From: a virus
Taxonomy: Duplodnaviria; Heunggongvirae; Uroviricota; Caudoviricetes
Length of the DNA: 7,745 nt
Direction: 5' to 3' (one strand)
IMG/VR virus record: IMGVR_UViG_2671180921_000004
Location: 1 to 7,745 of that record
A program made the position numbers and the translations under genes. A model generated the notes under the pieces. It was given only the letters and a program-made list of their open reading frames with translations, did not search any database and had not been told where the DNA came from. How positions within the stretch are numbered: the first letter of the stretch is position 1; each line of letters opens with the position of its first letter. Of the stretch, positions 17-4,214 are shown in pieces.

Positions 17-157
17 TTATCCATTTTGGGGAACTCCTGGCTGATTAAGTACGTCGATGAGTCGTTTCCATCCGTCACGTAATTTACGTGTGATTCGCTC
101 AAGTAAAGATTCGGAAGGGCAGCCAGCAACAGGCCACCCTGCAATGGCATATTGCAT
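17..157 (-). CDS. cIII: cIII-like regulatory protein (FtsH/HflB inhibitor that stabilises cII), 46 aa
   Basis: Not in the ORF track (under 60 aa). Minus-strand translation from the ATG at 157 gives MQYAIAGWPVAGCPSESLLERITRKLRDGWKRLIDVLNQPGVPQNG*, matching lambda cIII as I recall it almost residue for residue over the N-terminal 43 aa. A TAAGGAG Shine-Dalgarno lies about 6 nt upstream. Stop TAA is at 17-19 (plus-strand tta). Confidence 0.8.
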   Translation of the reverse strand: MQYAIAGWPVAGCPSESLLERITRKLRDGWKRLIDVLNQPGVPQNG

Positions 158-262
158 GGTGTGCTCCTTATTTACGCTTTAAATTGCTCCGTGTATTCAC
201 TCGTTGGAATGAATACACAGTGCAGTGTTTATTCTGTTGTTTATGCCAAAAATAAAGGCAGA

Positions 263-886
263 CTATGCGGCCTCGGAAGGAAGTCCAATCATCTTATTCA
301 AATCTTCTACCCGTAAAGCAGGAAGTGCTGTACTTGCTTTATCTGCTTCTTTTGGTAGCAATTCTTTGCTTTCAGGCCAAACTTCAATAAGTCGCTTAAC
401 TGTTGTGACTGAGTTCAAAGCAGCCCATACATTTGATTCGATATCCTTTTTCTTGTCTTCAAGTTTTTGTTGCAATGCGCAGATTTCATCAAACCTTTTT
501 GTTATTTCGTGTTCTGCGTCAAACATGCATTTATCTTTGGTCGGAGTAGGGAGCAATATATCTTCGCCGTTGCCGTCTTTCCCATATGAATGCCATCCAA
601 CCCTTCTGCCAGATACAGTCAGATAAATCGAAGTAGAACGAACATCGCATGAGTAAAATGAACATCCCATCTTTTCAAGTTCTTCACTTATAGCTACTAA
701 CCTGGATGATAACTGATCCACTTCATCAGTTTTCTTTTTACCGCCAAACGCAATAACTCTGGCGTCAAGTGCAAGCTGGTTCTTTAACTTTGTTACTTCT
801 TCAAGTTCAGTGAAAACCCCAGACTTAATTAAAGCGTTACGAGCGATTTCCTCTTTCATTCTCGTAGTTAAGCGGATTGATGACAT
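263..886 (-). CDS. hypothetical early-left (PL operon) accessory protein, 208 aa
   Basis: Long minus-strand ORF (track 263..946). The start was chosen at the internal ATG at 886 (MSSIRLTTRMKEE...), which is preceded by GAGAGGA; the longer track ORF would run to within 2 nt of the N stop. Same orientation as cIII and N. No family recognised from the sequence alone. Confidence 0.6.
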   Translation of the reverse strand: MSSIRLTTRMKEEIARNALIKSGVFTELEEVTKLKNQLALDARVIAFGGKKKTDEVDQLSSRLVAISEELEKMGCSFYSCDVRSTSIYLTVSGRRVGWHSYGKDGNGEDILLPTPTKDKCMFDAEHEITKRFDEICALQQKLEDKKKDIESNVWAALNSVTTVKRLIEVWPESKELLPKEADKASTALPALRVEDLNKMIGLPSEAA

Positions 887-947
887 ATTAATTCCTCTCA
901 AATAAGTGGTTTGCTGCCTAATTTCATTTTCTGGCGACCAACACAAG

Positions 948-1220
948 TCATCTTGCTGTCAGTTGTTTGGATTTCCGGTAGCCTGCCGCGTAAAGAGCTA
1001 CGTTCGGAAGACAAGTTGAGCCTTCATATTTTCTGGTCAACGTTGTCAGTGTTATTACTTCTGCTCTCATTGCTGGTTTGCGCTTGCATTGCAAGACCAC
1101 TCGAGAGGGGGTTGGTCTGTGTAGCTTGTCGGAGCTAATCGCCTCCTGACTTTGCAGGTTTGCGCGACGAGCTCTACGACGAGAAGCTGAGGTGCCTTTA
1201 AATTCTGTTTTTCTGGACAT
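948..1220 (-). CDS. N: N-like transcription antitermination protein, 90 aa
   Basis: Start taken at the ATG at 1220 (MSRKTEFKGTSASRRRARRANLQSQ...), preceded by GGGAGGA. The N-terminal arginine-rich motif SRRRARRA resembles the lambda N ARM (QTRRRERRAEKQ). The C-terminus LPNVALYAAGYRKSKQLTAR resembles the P22 gene 24 (N-like) C-terminus as recalled. It lies immediately downstream of the nutL and PL elements. Confidence 0.75.
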   Translation of the reverse strand: MSRKTEFKGTSASRRRARRANLQSQEAISSDKLHRPTPSRVVLQCKRKPAMRAEVITLTTLTRKYEGSTCLPNVALYAAGYRKSKQLTAR

Positions 1221-1318
1221 AGATTCCTCCCGAATAAACTTTGGTGATGCAATCTCGAAGCTCCTCCTGAGACGGTTGCTTCGGCATTGCATCCCACAGC
1301 TCATGTGGTTGGGTGATC

Positions 1319-1365
1319 TGGCTTTTCAGCCACGTAGTCGAGAGTTCGACGTTGTTTAAAGAGCC
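1319..1365 (-). promoter_or_regulatory. nutL: nutL site: boxA-like GCTCTTTAAACAAC (1351-1364) and boxB hairpin UGGCU-GAAA-AGCCA (1319-1332) on the leftward transcript
   Basis: Read on the minus strand, GGCTCTTTAAACAACG is followed 18 nt later by TGGCTGAAAAGCCA (5-bp stem, GAAA loop). Both elements have near-identical counterparts at nutR (4084-4129). Position between PL and N matches lambdoid layout. Confidence 0.6.
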
Positions 1366-1439: not shown

Positions 1440-1625
1440 TACGATTTGTTCTAAAATAGGGTGGTTTTTTATAACACTTTGTATTTAATAGTGTTGTTTT
1501 TTAGCGTGGGTGTATCGCCTCGGCGATGTAAGGAGAGATCAGAATTGCGTGGTTTAGTGAGTTGTATCTATTTATTTTTCAATAAATACATTTGGTTATG
1601 TGTTTTTAGGTGGCGAACGTGAGGC

Positions 1626-1651
1626 AAAGAAAACCCGGCGCTGAGGCCGGG
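1626..1651 (-). terminator. rho-independent terminator closing the leftward cI/TAC transcription unit
   Basis: On the minus strand the hairpin CCCGGC-ctcagc-GCCGGG (plus 1634-1651) is followed by TTTTCTTT (plus 1626-1633). It sits 10 nt downstream of the stop of the SecB-like gene. Confidence 0.6.
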
Positions 1652-1660
1652 TGGGGAATT

Positions 1661-2065
1661 TCACTTATTACTGTTCGTTTCCATGGGATTGGCCAAGAAA
1701 TCAAAATAAGGCAGAGTGAACCTACCAAGATTTGACATGAGGATAATTTGCTCGGCATATGTTTTTATATAGGGATATGCCATATTGGGAGCAATGGACC
1801 TTACCTCATATGATTTTGCCATTTCATGAGAAAAATCATCTTCTGACCGGAAGTCAAAGTCGTATGTGATGTCCATCTCAAGCCTGCCTTCAATAGTTAC
1901 GGAGGCAAAATATCTCACTCTAAATAGCTTTGAATCCTTCACATTAGTGTAAAGTTCATTATTTAGATTAACGGTTGTTTTTATGGCTTTTTTTGCTGTT
2001 GAATCGCCTTCTAGCCGTGTCATAACCAAGCGTTCAACTTTTTTGCTAATGAGTTCAATTTTCAT
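1661..2065 (-). CDS. SecB-like chaperone, third gene of a toxin-antitoxin-chaperone (TAC) cassette, 134 aa
   Basis: ORF track 1661..2065. Its start ATG overlaps the upstream gene's stop by 4 bp (ATGA), indicating translational coupling. The C-terminal region ...SIAPNMAYPYIKTYAEQIILMSNLGRFTLPYFDF... resembles the E. coli SecB segment ...[38 protein letters not shown]... as recalled. Size is similar to SecB. Product call is from memory-based similarity only. Confidence 0.6.
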   Translation of the reverse strand: MKIELISKKVERLVMTRLEGDSTAKKAIKTTVNLNNELYTNVKDSKLFRVRYFASVTIEGRLEMDITYDFDFRSEDDFSHEMAKSYEVRSIAPNMAYPYIKTYAEQIILMSNLGRFTLPYFDFLANPMETNSNK

Positions 2066-2718
2066 GGTAATAATAAGTAATTTCCGTCAGAAGTCATTTC
2101 GTCATTCAGGTTGCTAGCCGCTGTGAAACTTGATGACAAGTTACTTATCAAAGAAAAAACATTCCGTTTTTCTTTGCATTTGCCGTTACCCCTTACTGCG
2201 CTGAACAACATTTTTGAAAAGTAAGATTCTGTAGCCTTTTCAGCGAAATAAGCAGAAGGTGATGTGACGGCTGACTCACACCGAGCAATGACGCTAGTCA
2301 TGGCTGTTTCTTCTTCCTCTGCGTCAACTAGGCTCCATTCAATTGCGCTCATATCTTGAATTAAGATATCTGCAGGAATTCCAAGTCCGTCATGTAGTCT
2401 ACGGATCATTGAAAGACTTAATGGACGCTTACGATTTAAGACCTCAGATACTTTAGATGCTGAGCCAATGTATTGTTTCATATCGGCATAAGAGAGGCCT
2501 TGTTGATCCATACGGAACTTGATTGCTTCTATGGGATCTGGCTTGTCCATAGGGAACTCGCGTGACTCATAGTGCTCGATAAGCAAGCCTAGTAGTTCAA
2601 ACTCATCAAAATCTTCAGTTCCAGGTTGTAAATCACTAGACGCAAGTTCAATGAGCCTTTCCATAGCTGCAGCATGCTCTTCACTATTTTTAATGATGCG
2701 CCAGCTAGTTCGATTCAT
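2062..2718 (-). CDS. higA: HigA-family HTH (XRE-type) antitoxin with a ~96-aa C-terminal extension, 218 aa
   Basis: ORF track 2062..2718. Residues about 66-121 (IKFRMDQQGLSYADMKQYIGSASKVSEVLNRKRPLSLSMIRRLHDGLGIPADILI) align with the HTH end of E. coli HigA (...IRTLMDQYGLTLSDLPEIGSKSMVSRVLSGKRKLTLEHAKKLATRFGISPALF) as recalled. GGAGG lies 5 nt upstream of the ATG. 4-bp ATGA overlaps with the HigB stop upstream and the SecB-like start downstream. Confidence 0.8.
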   Translation of the reverse strand: MNRTSWRIIKNSEEHAAAMERLIELASSDLQPGTEDFDEFELLGLLIEHYESREFPMDKPDPIEAIKFRMDQQGLSYADMKQYIGSASKVSEVLNRKRPLSLSMIRRLHDGLGIPADILIQDMSAIEWSLVDAEEEETAMTSVIARCESAVTSPSAYFAEKATESYFSKMLFSAVRGNGKCKEKRNVFSLISNLSSSFTAASNLNDEMTSDGNYLLLP

Positions 2719-3002
2719 TTAAGCCTCCACTTGTCGTACTCTGCATGAGTTCCAACTCTTTCAACTATGACCATTCCTGCCTGGTAAACAACTTGGACAA
2801 CGAGCCGATAGTTATTGCCTTTTATATTAAAAATTACCCTGTTGTTAGGAAGGAAGTCGGCAGAATTAAATCTATTCCGTATGTCTTGAGTCGTTTTCCA
2901 GTTTTCTCTTATCACTTCATCATACCAAGAGTCTAAAGCCCCCTTGGCCTGATTGTGCTTCCGGCTAAAACTGTGAAGCTTCTCTACGTTTAAGACCTTC
3001 AT
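2715..3002 (-). CDS. higB: HigB-family toxin (RelE/ParE superfamily mRNA interferase), 95 aa
   Basis: ORF track 2715..3002. The segment NRVIFNIKGNNYRLVVQVVYQAGMVIVERVGTHAEYDKW aligns with E. coli HigB HYVFNVGGNELRVVAMVFFESQKCYIREVMTHKEYD as recalled. Toxin-first gene order is typical of higBA. Confidence 0.85.
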   Translation of the reverse strand: MKVLNVEKLHSFSRKHNQAKGALDSWYDEVIRENWKTTQDIRNRFNSADFLPNNRVIFNIKGNNYRLVVQVVYQAGMVIVERVGTHAEYDKWRLK

Positions 3003-3024
3003 AATCCGATTTTGTTCCCTCTTT

Positions 3025-3057
3025 GGGAATTATAGATTCATTTCCCATAAAGGGAAT
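3025..3057 (-). promoter_or_regulatory. putative promoter and operator of the higB-higA-secB-like operon: -10 TATAAT (minus strand, plus 3029-3034) flanked by GGGAAT / TTCCC-ataaa-GGGAA inverted repeats
   Basis: A perfect TATAAT hexamer on the minus strand lies 26 nt upstream of the higB ATG. GGGAAT occurs at 3025-3030 and 3052-3057, with TTCCC at 3042-3046 forming the dyad TTCCC-ATAAA-GGGAA. No good -35 is visible. Antitoxin autoregulation sites are typically palindromes over the promoter, which is the basis for the operator call. Confidence 0.35.
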
Positions 3058-3087
3058 CTGTATTTTTATCCAGAAATGCTATGTACA

Positions 3088-3747
3088 TCACCCAAACGTC
3101 TCTTCAGGCCACTGGCTAGCGATAACTTTCCCCACAACGGAACAACTCTCATTGCATGGGATCATTGGGTACTGTGGGTTTAGTGGTTGTAAAAACACCT
3201 GACCGCTATCCCTGATCAGTTTCTTGAAGGTAAATTCATCACCACCAAGTCTGGCTATGCAGAAATCGCCGGGCTCAACAGCTTGCTCTGGGTCAACCAG
3301 AATTAACATCCCGTCAGGAAAACTAGGTTTGGAACCTGTTGGGGCGGTCATTGAGTTACCTTCAACCTCAAGCCAGAATGCAGAGTCACTGGCTTTTTTG
3401 GTTGTGCTTACCAATCTCTCCGCATCGCCTTTGGTAAAGGTTCTGAGTTCTGGAGAGAACATCCCAGCCTGAACATGAGAAAAAACAGGGTACTCATATT
3501 GTTTTTTAACTGGGGCCGATGAGTATTCGCCAACAGGTGAAAATGTCCCGTCGTGGTTGAATGATATGTTATCAATACCAAGGTATTTAAACACCACACC
3601 AATATCACTAAGAGATGGATGACGAGATCCGCGCAACCAGTGTCCAATCCCACCCTGCGTCATACCTAGCTCTTCGGCTAACTTCTCTTGAGTTATGCCG
3701 AGCTCTTTCATTCTGGATCTAGCCAGTTCATACCATTTCATTTTCAT
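3088..3747 (-). CDS. cI: cI-type prophage repressor: heterologous N-terminal HTH domain fused to a lambda-cI-like C-terminal LexA/S24 autocleavage and dimerisation domain, 220 aa
   Basis: The C-terminal ~135 aa ([28 protein letters not shown]...[18 protein letters not shown]) are near-identical to lambda cI as recalled, including the Ala-Gly cleavage region and the catalytic Ser/Lys context. The N-terminal ~85 aa ([45 protein letters not shown]...) are not lambda-like. Start taken at the ATG at 3747 (alternative ATG at 3741); the track ORF extension to 3909 would cross the operator region into cro and is rejected. Confidence 0.9.
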
Positions 3748-3857
3748 GTCCTTATTATTACGCTCTGTATTGCAACCATCCATGCACAATGTGTATTTTT
3801 GCTTGCATTCAAAAAGTACATATTGTATTTTTTCTTCATGGTTACTATGGAGGGCAT
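3748..3857. promoter_or_regulatory. OR region with divergent PRM/PR; PR -35 TTGCAT (3803-3808) and -10 TATTTT (3826-3831); operator-like repeats with TGTATT cores at about 3760-3775, 3784-3799 and 3813-3829
   Basis: 110-bp gap between divergent cI and cro. The motif AAAGTACATATTGTATT (3813-3829) sits in the PR spacer and -10 and matches the PL spacer motif at 15/17 positions. Two further related repeats (CACAATGTGTATTTTT, CTCTGTATTGCAA) recur at about 26-32 bp spacing. Confidence 0.55.
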
Positions 3858-4073
3858 ATGAGCAACCTACGAAAATATCGAGAGTCACTGAATATCTCTC
3901 AAACAACACTTGCTAAGGCAGTTGGATGCACACAGGGAGCTATCGGACATTGGGAATCTGGTCGTCGCTTCCCAGACCTTAAAACATGCCGTGCTCTTGT
4001 TGCGTGTCTAAACAAGTTAGGCGCAAAAGTAAGTCTTGATGACGTGTTCCCGCCGGAGCACAAATCCGCTTAA
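3858..4073 (+). CDS. cro: Cro-like HTH (XRE-family) regulator, 71 aa
   Basis: Start at ATG 3858 with GGAGGG 4 nt upstream. The HTH region [24 protein letters not shown] parallels the cI N-terminal HTH ([24 protein letters not shown]), as expected for two proteins sharing operators. Divergent from cI. The longer track ORF from 3789 lacks an RBS and overlaps the operators. Confidence 0.8.
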
Positions 4074-4083
4074 TAAGCGGAGC

Positions 4084-4129
4084 CGCTCTTTGTAACAACG
4101 GACATTCGTCCTACGTCGCTGAAAAGCGA
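4084..4129 (+). promoter_or_regulatory. nutR: nutR site: boxA CGCTCTTTGTAACAAC (4084-4099) and boxB hairpin UCGCU-GAAA-AGCGA (4116-4129)
   Basis: Immediately downstream of cro. Near-identical in architecture and sequence to the nutL elements on the opposite strand (boxA GCTCTTT..AACAAC; boxB N-GCU-GAAA-AGC-N). Confidence 0.6.
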
Positions 4130-4214
4130 GCCCCAAGATATCTGACCAACTAAGGCCATATGCGTTTCCACGCATACCTTTCAACTAACTATTCACTATT
4201 GGAAATCTTAAGAA

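What the first reader, a model, noticed from the sequence alone, without database searches (positions are those of the whole stretch)
2065..2355. About 96-aa Ser-rich C-terminal extension on the HigA antitoxin: candidate chaperone-addiction segment
The HigA HTH homology ends near residue 121 (GIPADILI). Residues 122-218 (DMSAIEWSLVDAEEEETAMTSVIARCESAVTSPSAYFAEKATESYFSKMLFSAVRGNGKCKEKRNVFSLISNLSSSFTAASNLNDEMTSDGNYLLLP) have no counterpart in canonical ~100-140-aa HigA proteins and look low-complexity. In described TAC systems the antitoxin carries a C-terminal chaperone-addiction region bound by the SecB-like partner. This extension is much longer than the short M. tuberculosis one as I recall it, so it may have an added function such as sensing a phage trigger.
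Basis: inference. Interest (0 to 1): 0.6.

Follow-up and report, generated by a model that had tools for sequence, protein, structure and literature searches.

The report
Known HigA chaperone-addiction tail (HigBAC)
The long C-terminal tail on this prophage HigA antitoxin is real, but it is the chaperone-addiction segment of the E. coli HigBAC anti-phage system that was characterised experimentally in 2024, so the finding is correct but not new.

Summary
Window 2065-2355 (minus strand) encodes residues 122-218 of a 218-aa HigA.

**What is there**
- It lies in a higB-higA-higC operon with overlapping stop and start codons, between a cI-like repressor and pL/N of a lambdoid prophage. That is the slot held by rexAB in phage lambda.
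- The tail is predicted to be disordered and matches no known domain.
- Two-gene HigA relatives lack it. Relatives that carry it are followed by a SecB-like gene.
- The 134-aa third protein models as a SecB fold. Its best structural match is the M. tuberculosis TAC chaperone bound to its ChAD peptide.

**Why it is already known**
- This is a near-identical allele of E. coli NT1F31 HigBAC (Mets et al. 2024).
- That paper defines the ChAD as residues 122-218 and names W128, F158, F188 and Y214 as anchors. All four are present here.
- It shows that deleting 122-218 makes HigA independent of the chaperone.
- It shows that HigC senses the lambda tail protein gpV, which competes with the ChAD for HigC.

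**Verdict**
- One correction: the chaperone is the phage sensor, not the tail.
- Novelty is "already known" and interest is low.

The parts
2715..3002 (-). higB, a 95-aa RelE/HigB-family mRNA interferase toxin. Its TGA stop overlaps the higA ATG (ATGA).
   Evidence: Pfam HigB_toxin E = 4.5e-30. PADLOC PD-Lambda-2_A E = 2.5e-42. It differs from the published NT1F31 HigB at residue 31, I against R.
2356..2718 (-). higA codons 1-121: the folded helix-turn-helix antitoxin domain.
   Evidence: Pfam HTH_3 covers residues 67-118. Solved E. coli HigA 5ifg/5ycl match at E = 5e-5, ending at residue 119. AlphaFold2 pLDDT is 91-95 with seven helices. dN/dS is 0.025.
2065..2355 (-). higA codons 122-218: the chaperone-addiction (ChAD) tail, which is the finding itself.
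   Evidence: pLDDT 41-53 with no secondary structure. No Pfam or PDB match. Absent from short homologues. dN/dS 0.24. The published ChAD is residues 122-218.
2335..2337 (-). Codon for W128, the first aromatic anchor of the ChAD.
   Evidence: An aromatic residue is conserved here in 33 of 35 tailed homologues. The published W128A change abolishes peptide binding to HigC.
2245..2247 (-). Codon for F158, the second aromatic anchor.
   Evidence: Aromatic in 24 of 35 homologues, and in 32 of 35 within two columns either side.
2155..2157 (-). Codon for F188, the third aromatic anchor. It lies in the patch the paper predicts to be aggregation-prone.
   Evidence: Aromatic in 23 of 35 homologues..
2077..2079 (-). 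Codon for Y214, the fourth aromatic anchor.
   Evidence: Aromatic in 30 of 35 homologues.
1661..2065 (-). higC, a 134-aa SecB-like chaperone. Its ATG overlaps the higA TGA stop (ATGA).
   Evidence: AlphaFold2 model with pLDDT 86.9. The top Foldseek hit is 5mtw, M. tuberculosis Rv1957 with its ChAD peptide, at E = 5e-7 and TM 0.73-0.75, followed by E. coli and H. influenzae SecB. PADLOC PD-T4-9_C (CmdC) E = 3e-11. Pocket residues Y39, N41, R49 and D71 are present and invariant or nearly so.
1633..1652 (-). Intrinsic-terminator-like hairpin with a T run, 9 nt after the higC stop.
   Evidence: The paper's 'terminator_rev' cloning primer matches window 1622-1641 at 19 of 20 bases.
3088..3909 (-). 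Context: the cI-like repressor ORF (HTH plus Peptidase_S24) directly upstream of higB. The true start is probably an internal ATG.
   Evidence: Pfam Peptidase_S24 E = 1.9e-28 and HTH_3 E = 2.6e-10.
948..1304 (-). Context: the antiterminator N gene downstream. The pL/oL and nutL region lies between it and higC.
   Evidence: Pfam N_peptide E = 7.6e-32. A boxB-like inverted pair lies at 1318-1337 and 4111-4130, and an operator-like pair at 1409-1429 and 3813-3833.

Best explanation
Residues 122-218 of HigA are the chaperone-addiction (ChAD) element of a prophage-borne HigBAC toxin-antitoxin-chaperone anti-phage system.

1. The tail is intrinsically disordered. Left alone, it makes HigA unstable, so HigB is not neutralised.
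2. The SecB-like tetramer HigC binds the tail. Four regularly spaced aromatic residues (W128, F158, F188, Y214, spaced 30, 30 and 26 residues apart) fit into equivalent pockets on HigC. This stabilises HigA and keeps HigB silent in the lysogen.
3. When a sensitive siphovirus such as lambda infects, nascent major tail protein gpV presents a similar aromatic and acidic pattern and competes with the ChAD for HigC.
4. HigA is then lost, HigB cleaves mRNA, translation stops and the infection is aborted.

Shown here: the anatomy, the disorder, the SecB fold, the link between tail and chaperone gene across loci, and near-identity to the published system. Taken from the paper: the biochemical and genetic steps.
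For: **Anatomy**
- The three ORFs overlap by ATGA at both junctions.
- A terminator-like hairpin follows higC.
- The operon lies between the cI-like repressor and N.

**Tail**
- Predicted disordered.
- No domain match.
- Under purifying selection that is about ten times more relaxed than on the N-terminal domain: omega 0.24 against 0.025.
- The aromatic anchors are conserved although tail identity to the window falls to 9-50% in most homologues.

**Chaperone**
- SecB fold, with the M. tuberculosis TAC chaperone-ChAD complex as best match.
- Family members reach or nearly reach the Pfam SecB cut-off: 28.7, 25.4 and 23.4 bits against 26.
- Pocket residues are invariant or nearly so.

**Comparative test**
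- All 9 long-tailed HigA loci examined carry a third ORF of 128-144 aa. In 7 of the 8 scored it is a clear HigC homologue (E = 1e-37 to 4e-53). The ninth, L093, has a 134-aa third ORF that aligns to HigC over its full length.
- All nine sit next to a phage repressor.
- The short homologues P0081 and P0118 are plain two-gene higBA loci.
- None of 80 loci with short or peptidase-fused HigA holds a HigC homologue.
- Tail divergence tracks HigC divergence better than it tracks the antitoxin's own N-terminal domain: partial rho 0.55, partial Mantel p about 2e-4.

**Identity with the published system**
- HigA is 218 aa and ends in Leu-Pro. W128, F158, F188 and Y214 in HigA, and Y39, N41, R49 and D71 in HigC, all match.
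- The published peptide HigA121-146 is identical to the window sequence.
- The readable part of the NT1F31 TAC fragment is 98.6% identical over 365 nt, and the paper's primers match the window.

**Function in that system:**
Against: - The window's HigC has no Pfam, NCBIfam or PDB match at sequence level. Its SecB assignment rests on a predicted fold, on PADLOC and on homologues.
- The window allele is not identical to NT1F31. HigB has I31 instead of R31, and there are a few silent or non-coding differences.
- I could compare the tail with the published one only at the named residues, at residues 121-146 and at the primer sites. The held supplement cuts the fragment short.
- No experiment was done on this allele.
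- The protease that removes free HigA is unknown. According to the paper it is not ClpXP, Lon or HslVU.
Confidence: 0.93

Rival explanations
1. The tail itself is the phage sensor. A phage protein would bind or modify the extension directly, and the chaperone would be only a folding helper.
For: The tail is long, fast-evolving and disordered, as sensor surfaces often are.
Against: In the published system gpV is pulled down with HigC. The gpV48-78 peptide binds HigC with a KD of 250 nM and competes with the ChAD peptide. Escape mutations and gpV W67A act through HigC recognition. HigC moved onto the CmdTA module carries its spectrum with it (abstract).
Confidence: 0.04
2. The tail is only a protease degron of the ClpXP type, as in M. 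tuberculosis HigA1 or CmdA, and the chaperone simply masks the C-terminal tag.
For: The paper finds that HigA is undetectable without HigC and that no aggregates form, which points to proteolysis.
Against: The tail ends in Leu-Pro rather than Ala-Ala or Val-Ala. HigBA remains toxic in clpP, clpX, lon and clpPX lon hslVU backgrounds. Four dispersed aromatic residues, not the terminus, determine both instability and HigC binding.
Confidence: 0.03
3. The extension is an independent folded domain with another function, or an artefact such as a fused or frameshifted ORF.
For: The same HigA N-terminal domain is fused elsewhere to a real domain: about 400-aa forms carry Peptidase_M78.
Against: The best Pfam hit for the tail has E = 0.11, below the cut-off, and there is no PDB hit. 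pLDDT is below 55 with no secondary structure. The PADLOC PD-Lambda-2_B profile matches only positions 3-125 of 402. The ORF is conserved in length across genera, occurs on at least 1000 contigs, and has omega 0.24.
Confidence: 0.01

Closest known systems
E. coli NT1F31 HigBAC (Mets et al. 2024, Cell Host Microbe 32:1059; preprint 10.1101/2024.02.24.581848)
   Same: Same three genes in the same order, and the same site downstream of cI in a lambdoid prophage. HigA is 218 aa with the ChAD at 122-218, carries W128, F158, F188 and Y214, and ends in Leu-Pro. HigC is 134 aa with Y39, N41, R49 and D71. The HigA121-146 peptide is identical, and DNA identity is 98.6% over the 365 nt that could be compared.
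   Different: It is an allelic variant. HigB has I31 instead of R31, and there are a few silent or non-coding substitutions. The flanking repressor and immunity region differ between carriers, as expected for mosaic prophages.
M. tuberculosis TAC: HigB1-HigA1-Rv1957 (Bordes et al. 2016, PMC5105189; Guillet et al. 2019, PMC6377645; PDB 5mtw)
   Same: A HigB toxin, a HigA antitoxin with a C-terminal ChAD extension, and a dedicated SecB-like chaperone. The HigC model superposes best on Rv1957 bound to its ChAD peptide.
   Different: The tail here is more than twice as long and carries four anchor motifs. It has no ClpXP-type C-terminal degron. HigC and Rv1957 share only 16-17% identity. The system here is prophage-borne, with a shown anti-phage role.
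CmdTAC / PD-T4-9 (Vassallo et al. 2024, PMC11618068)
   Same: A SecB-like chaperone that guards an antitoxin and acts as the phage sensor. The window's HigC matches the PD-T4-9_C profile at E = 3e-11.
   Different: The toxin there is an mRNA ADP-ribosyltransferase, not HigB. The antitoxin is unrelated, shorter, and has an Ala-Ala ClpXP degron. It targets T-even phages.
PD-lambda-2 (PADLOC models PD-Lambda-2_A and PD-Lambda-2_B)
   Same: HigB and the HigA N-terminal domain match these profiles strongly, at E = 2.5e-42 and 3.8e-50.
   Different: The antitoxin there is about 400 aa and carries a Peptidase_M78 (ImmA/IrrE-like) domain where the window has a disordered tail. No HigC homologue was found at such loci.

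Membership tests
HigBAC toxin-antitoxin-chaperone (TAC) system | Three-gene operon in the order toxin, antitoxin, SecB-like chaperone | tested here: met
   higB 2715-3002, higA 2062-2718 and higC 1661-2065 all lie on the minus strand, with ATGA overlaps at both junctions and a terminator-like hairpin after higC.
HigBAC toxin-antitoxin-chaperone (TAC) system | Toxin of the HigB/RelE family | tested here: met
   Pfam HigB_toxin at 104 bits against a cut-off of 27.
HigBAC toxin-antitoxin-chaperone (TAC) system | Antitoxin with a HigA-type HTH domain plus a C-terminal extension that two-gene homologues lack | tested here: met
   Short homologues end at reference positions 124-137, and 40 of 80 genome loci encode HigA of 116-145 aa.
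HigBAC toxin-antitoxin-chaperone (TAC) system | Extension is disordered and is not an independent domain | tested here: met
   pLDDT 41-53 with no secondary structure. No Pfam or PDB match.
HigBAC toxin-antitoxin-chaperone (TAC) system | Third protein has the SecB fold | tested here: met
   Model pLDDT 86.9. Foldseek finds 5mtw, 1qyn and 1fx3 at E = 5e-7 to 3e-6 with TM 0.70-0.77.
HigBAC toxin-antitoxin-chaperone (TAC) system | Third protein matches the SecB family at sequence level (Pfam PF02556) | tested here: inconclusive
   The window protein itself gives no hit. The HigC homologues from L084 and L087 (E = 1e-41 and 1e-37 to the HigC profile) score 28.7 and 25.4 bits against a cut-off of 26. 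UniRef names the exact sequence 'Preprotein translocase subunit SecB'.
HigBAC toxin-antitoxin-chaperone (TAC) system | Published ChAD anchors (W128, F158, F188, Y214) and HigC pocket residues (Y39, N41, R49, D71) | tested here: met
   All eight residues are present at the stated positions and conserved among homologues.
HigBAC toxin-antitoxin-chaperone (TAC) system | Tail co-occurs with the chaperone gene across related loci | tested here: met
   Clear HigC homologues follow 7 of 8 long-tailed HigA genes scored, and a ninth locus (L093) has a 134-aa third ORF that aligns to HigC. Proteus and Xenorhabdus carry a different SecB-like ORF. HigC is absent from the short two-gene loci.
HigBAC toxin-antitoxin-chaperone (TAC) system | Functional chaperone addiction: the antitoxin fails without the chaperone, and removing the tail cures this | not testable with these tools
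   Shown experimentally for the near-identical NT1F31 allele, but not for this allele.
PD-lambda-2 | Antitoxin of about 400 aa with a C-terminal Peptidase_M78-like domain | tested here: not met
   The window HigA covers only positions 3-125 of the 402-position profile. The tail has no M78 match.
CmdTAC (PD-T4-9) | ADP-ribosyltransferase toxin CmdT and antitoxin CmdA | tested here: not met
   Only the chaperone profile PD-T4-9_C matches. The toxin is HigB.

The most novel reading that the evidence does not exclude
Across prophages, the ChAD tail and HigC may diversify together as an exchangeable sensor cassette on a conserved HigBA warhead. Different tail and chaperone variants would then recognise different phage structural proteins. 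The same HigA N-terminal domain also occurs bare and fused to an M78 peptidase, so these could be alternative trigger modules. Supporting observations:
- Tail divergence follows HigC divergence after controlling for the N-terminal domain (partial rho 0.55, p about 2e-4).
- The tail and HigC evolve at similar elevated rates (omega 0.24 and 0.17, against 0.025 for HigB and the N-terminal domain).

The sample is small (14 systems, six of them paired only by matching contig length). Physical linkage in mosaic prophages could give the same signal without any change in specificity.
Probability: 0.3. Interest if true: 0.4.

Novelty: already known. Interest (0 to 1): 0.1.

Why it matters
The segment is the switch of an abortive-infection system that many E. 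coli prophages carry, Shiga-toxin phages among them. It shows how a disordered tail and a SecB-like chaperone turn a toxin-antitoxin pair into a phage sensor. All of that has been published for a near-identical allele, so this window adds only an annotation. RefSeq still labels HigC 'hypothetical protein' and HigA 'helix-turn-helix domain-containing protein', and those labels could be corrected. The three architectures of this HigA family and the co-divergence of tail and chaperone are modest leads for comparative work.

Tried and rejected
- **Sequence searches on HigC.** Pfam, NCBIfam, and PDB searches with the single sequence and with a profile found nothing. Only the predicted fold, PADLOC and homologues link it to SecB.
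- **Genome-contig scan with the HigA alignment.** It returned short and peptidase-fused forms, not the enterobacterial long-tailed ones, so I fetched long-tailed loci one at a time.
- **L078.** Its 183-aa 'long' HigA is a read-through in a high-GC genome with no chaperone gene, and I discounted it.
- **Accession check.** I could not confirm WP_112844289.1 in the cluster listing.
- **Full NT1F31 fragment.** The held supplement cuts it short. Identity was therefore checked on 365 nt, one peptide, the primers and the named residues.
- **Low-complexity reading of the tail.** Rejected.
- **Promoter scan.** Matches are no more frequent than in shuffled sequence, so I claim no promoter.

Full report
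**1. What is in the window**

The window is the immunity and early region of a lambdoid prophage.

Minus-strand genes:
- a cI-like repressor (3088-3909, HTH plus Peptidase_S24)
- higB (2715-3002, Pfam HigB_toxin E = 4.5e-30)
- a 218-aa HTH protein (2062-2718)
- a 134-aa ORF (1661-2065)
- the antiterminator N (948-1304)
- an Nmad5 gene (263-946)

Plus-strand genes to the right of cI, assigned from the RefSeq annotation of the related O26:H11 prophage:
- cro-like, cII, O, P and ren

Regulatory features:
- higB/higA and higA/higC overlap by ATGA.
- A hairpin with a T run lies 9 nt after higC.
- A boxB-like pair lies at 1318-1337 and 4111-4130, and an operator-like pair at 1409-1429 and 3813-3833. 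These mark nutL/nutR and oL/oR.

The three genes therefore fill the cI-to-pL slot that holds rexAB in phage lambda.

The 1.6-kb block is widespread:
- It is 99% identical in 88 complete E. coli genomes, including O26:H11 11368 and O157:H7 86-24.
- It is also present in Shiga-toxin phages such as BP-4795 and ST2-8624.
- RefSeq labels HigC 'hypothetical protein'.

**2. Checking the observation**

Window 2065-2355 is exactly HigA residues 122-218, which is 97 residues.

- Solved E. coli HigA aligns only to residue 118-119, at its own C-terminus.
- The PADLOC antitoxin profile covers residues 5-127.
- Seven short homologues of 122-135 aa, 53-73% identical, stop at reference positions 124-137.

Other properties of the tail:
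- An AlphaFold2 model built on 42 sequences gives pLDDT 91-95 for residues 1-120. For the tail it gives 41-53 with no secondary structure.
- The tail alone has no Pfam hit (best E = 0.11, below the cut-off) and no PDB hit.
- Serine makes up 16.5% of it. Entropy is 3.88 bits against 4.00 for the N-terminal domain, and no window is low-complexity. It is disordered rather than low-complexity.
- Against a Salmonella salamae allele the tail has dN/dS 0.24. The N-terminal domain and HigB each have 0.025, and HigC has 0.17. The tail is therefore translated and constrained, but evolves fast.

**3. The third gene**

Pfam, NCBIfam and PDB sequence searches give nothing for the 134-aa protein. Other evidence places it with SecB:
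- PADLOC matches it to PD-T4-9_C, the CmdC chaperone, at E = 3e-11.
- A model built on 20 homologues has pLDDT 86.9.
- The best Foldseek matches are the four chains of 5mtw, the M. tuberculosis Rv1957 SecB-like chaperone with a HigA1 ChAD peptide, at E = 5e-7 and TM 0.73-0.75. E. coli and H. influenzae SecB follow.
- The family members from L084 and L087 score 28.7 and 25.4 bits on Pfam SecB, against a cut-off of 26.

**4. Comparative test of the tail-chaperone link**

| HigA type | Loci examined | What follows higA |
|---|---|---|
| Long tail, 192-244 aa | 8 (Buttiauxella, Citrobacter x2, Cedecea, Klebsiella, Pectobacterium, Rosenbergiella, Salmonella) | A 128-144 aa third ORF. Seven score E = 1e-37 to 4e-53 against the HigC profile. 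The Salmonella one (L093, 134 aa) aligns to HigC over its full length. |
| Long tail, 189 aa | 1 (Gilliamella) | A 132-aa ORF with no detectable similarity to HigC or SecB. |
| Shorter tail, 190-195 aa | 2 (Proteus, Xenorhabdus) | A different 156-157 aa SecB-like ORF. Pfam SecB E = 6e-5 for the Xenorhabdus one. |
| Short, 131-135 aa | 2 (P0081, P0118) | Nothing; plain two-gene higBA. |
| Short or about 400 aa | 80 genome loci | No HigC homologue in any of them. |

- All nine long-tailed loci in the first two rows sit next to a phage repressor.
- Half of the 80 genome loci encode HigA of 116-145 aa.
- About 29 encode forms of about 400 aa. The one I scanned carries Peptidase_M78, the PD-lambda-2 architecture.
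- In 35 tailed homologues, tail identity to the window falls to 9-50% in most, yet aromatic residues persist. The counts are W128 33/35, F158 24/35, F188 23/35 and Y/F214 30/35.
- The HigC pocket residues N41, R49 and D71 are invariant, and Y39 is at least 90% conserved.
- Over 14 paired systems, tail divergence follows HigC divergence after controlling for the N-terminal domain. Partial rho is 0.55 and partial Mantel p is about 2e-4. The reverse partial correlation is 0.17.
- Two caveats apply to that last result. Six of the pairs were matched only by equal contig length, and the tail and higC are physically adjacent.

**5. It is already described**

[quoted passage not shown] The preprint is 10.1101/2024.02.24.581848. 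The journal version is Cell Host Microbe 32:1059, 2024, as cited in PMC11980606.

What the paper reports:
- W128, F158, F188 and Y214 slot into HigC pockets formed by Y39, N41, R49 and D71.
- HigA ends in Leu-Pro.

How the window compares:
- All of these features are present at the same positions.
- The paper's ITC peptide HigA121-146 (QDMSAIEWSLVDAEEEETAMTSVIAR) is identical to the window sequence.
- The readable part of the paper's NT1F31 TAC fragment is 98.6% identical to window 2754-3118. The one coding difference is HigB I31 against R31.
- The paper's cloning, truncation and W128A primers map onto the window.

**6. Mechanism, as published for that allele**

- HigBA without HigC is toxic, and HigC rescues it.
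- Deleting residues 122-218 makes HigA sufficient on its own.
- The W128A, F158A, Y214A triple mutant cannot be rescued by HigC.
- The quadruple mutant is stable without HigC.
- HigA is undetectable without HigC. This instability does not depend on ClpXP, Lon or HslVU.
- Lambda escape mutants carry gpV S54P.
- The gpV48-78 peptide binds HigC with a KD of 250 nM and competes with the ChAD peptide. Folded gpV N-terminal domain does not bind HigC, which points to co-translational sensing.

The chaperone is the sensor, and the tail is the ligand that gets displaced.

**7. Verdict**

The finding is already known, and its value here is as an annotation. The only mildly new leads are the three architectures built on one HigA domain and the co-divergence of tail and chaperone.

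Noticed in passing
L002-L081 (for example L005:3007-4212): The same HigA N-terminal domain, about 50-60% identical to the window's, occurs in three architectures: bare proteins of 116-145 aa, proteins of 190-245 aa with a disordered tail plus a SecB-like gene, and proteins of about 400 aa. The one about-400-aa form I scanned carries a Peptidase_M78 (ImmA/IrrE-like) domain, which is the PD-lambda-2 type.
   Followed up: partly
L088:2501-3494 (Gilliamella sp.): A 189-aa tailed HigA next to a prophage repressor is followed by a 132-aa ORF. That ORF has no similarity to HigC or Pfam SecB, so it may be a different partner or a very divergent chaperone.
   Followed up: partly
L012:3001-4024 and L043:2971-4015 (Proteus vulgaris, Xenorhabdus): HigA proteins of 190-195 aa with shorter tails of roughly 55-70 residues overlap a 156-157 aa third ORF. 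That ORF belongs to a different SecB-like clade. Pfam SecB gives E = 6e-5 for Xenorhabdus, and neither ORF hits the HigC profile.
   Followed up: partly
L090:2291-3164 (Serratia symbiotica): This looks like a decayed locus. A 62-aa ORF sits where higB should be, HigA is cut to 128 aa (73% identical to the window's N-terminal domain), and an unrelated 86-aa ORF follows. This fits gene decay in an endosymbiont.
   Followed up: no
window 2911 (HigB codon 31): The window HigB has Ile31 where the published NT1F31 HigB has Arg31. The effect on toxin activity is unknown.
   Followed up: no
window 2070-2097 (-): A sigma-70-like match (ATGACT, 16-nt spacer, TATTAT; 9 of 12) lies inside the last codons of the ChAD, just upstream of the higC start. 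It could be an internal promoter for the chaperone. However, promoter-like matches in this region are no more frequent than in shuffled sequence.
   Followed up: no
window 112-170 (-): There is an Rfam Lambda_thermo (cIII thermoregulator) element at 88.5 bits, E = 3.7e-21. This confirms the pL operon context.
   Followed up: no
window 263-946 (-): An Nmad5 (nucleotide modification associated domain 5) gene lies directly downstream of N, at Pfam E = 9e-71. It is an accessory gene in the early-left operon with an untested function.
   Followed up: no
window 1318-1337 / 4111-4130 and 1409-1429 / 3813-3833: Two inverted pairs flank the cI-higBAC block. One is boxB-like (nutL/nutR, 90% complementary) and the other operator-like (oL/oR, 86% complementary).
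   Followed up: no
window 3088-3909 (-): The similarity of the higBAC block to Stx prophages stops at about window 3100, at the end of the repressor gene. The same higBAC cassette is therefore joined to different immunity (cI) types in different prophages. No complete E. coli genome covers 80% or more of the window.
   Followed up: partly
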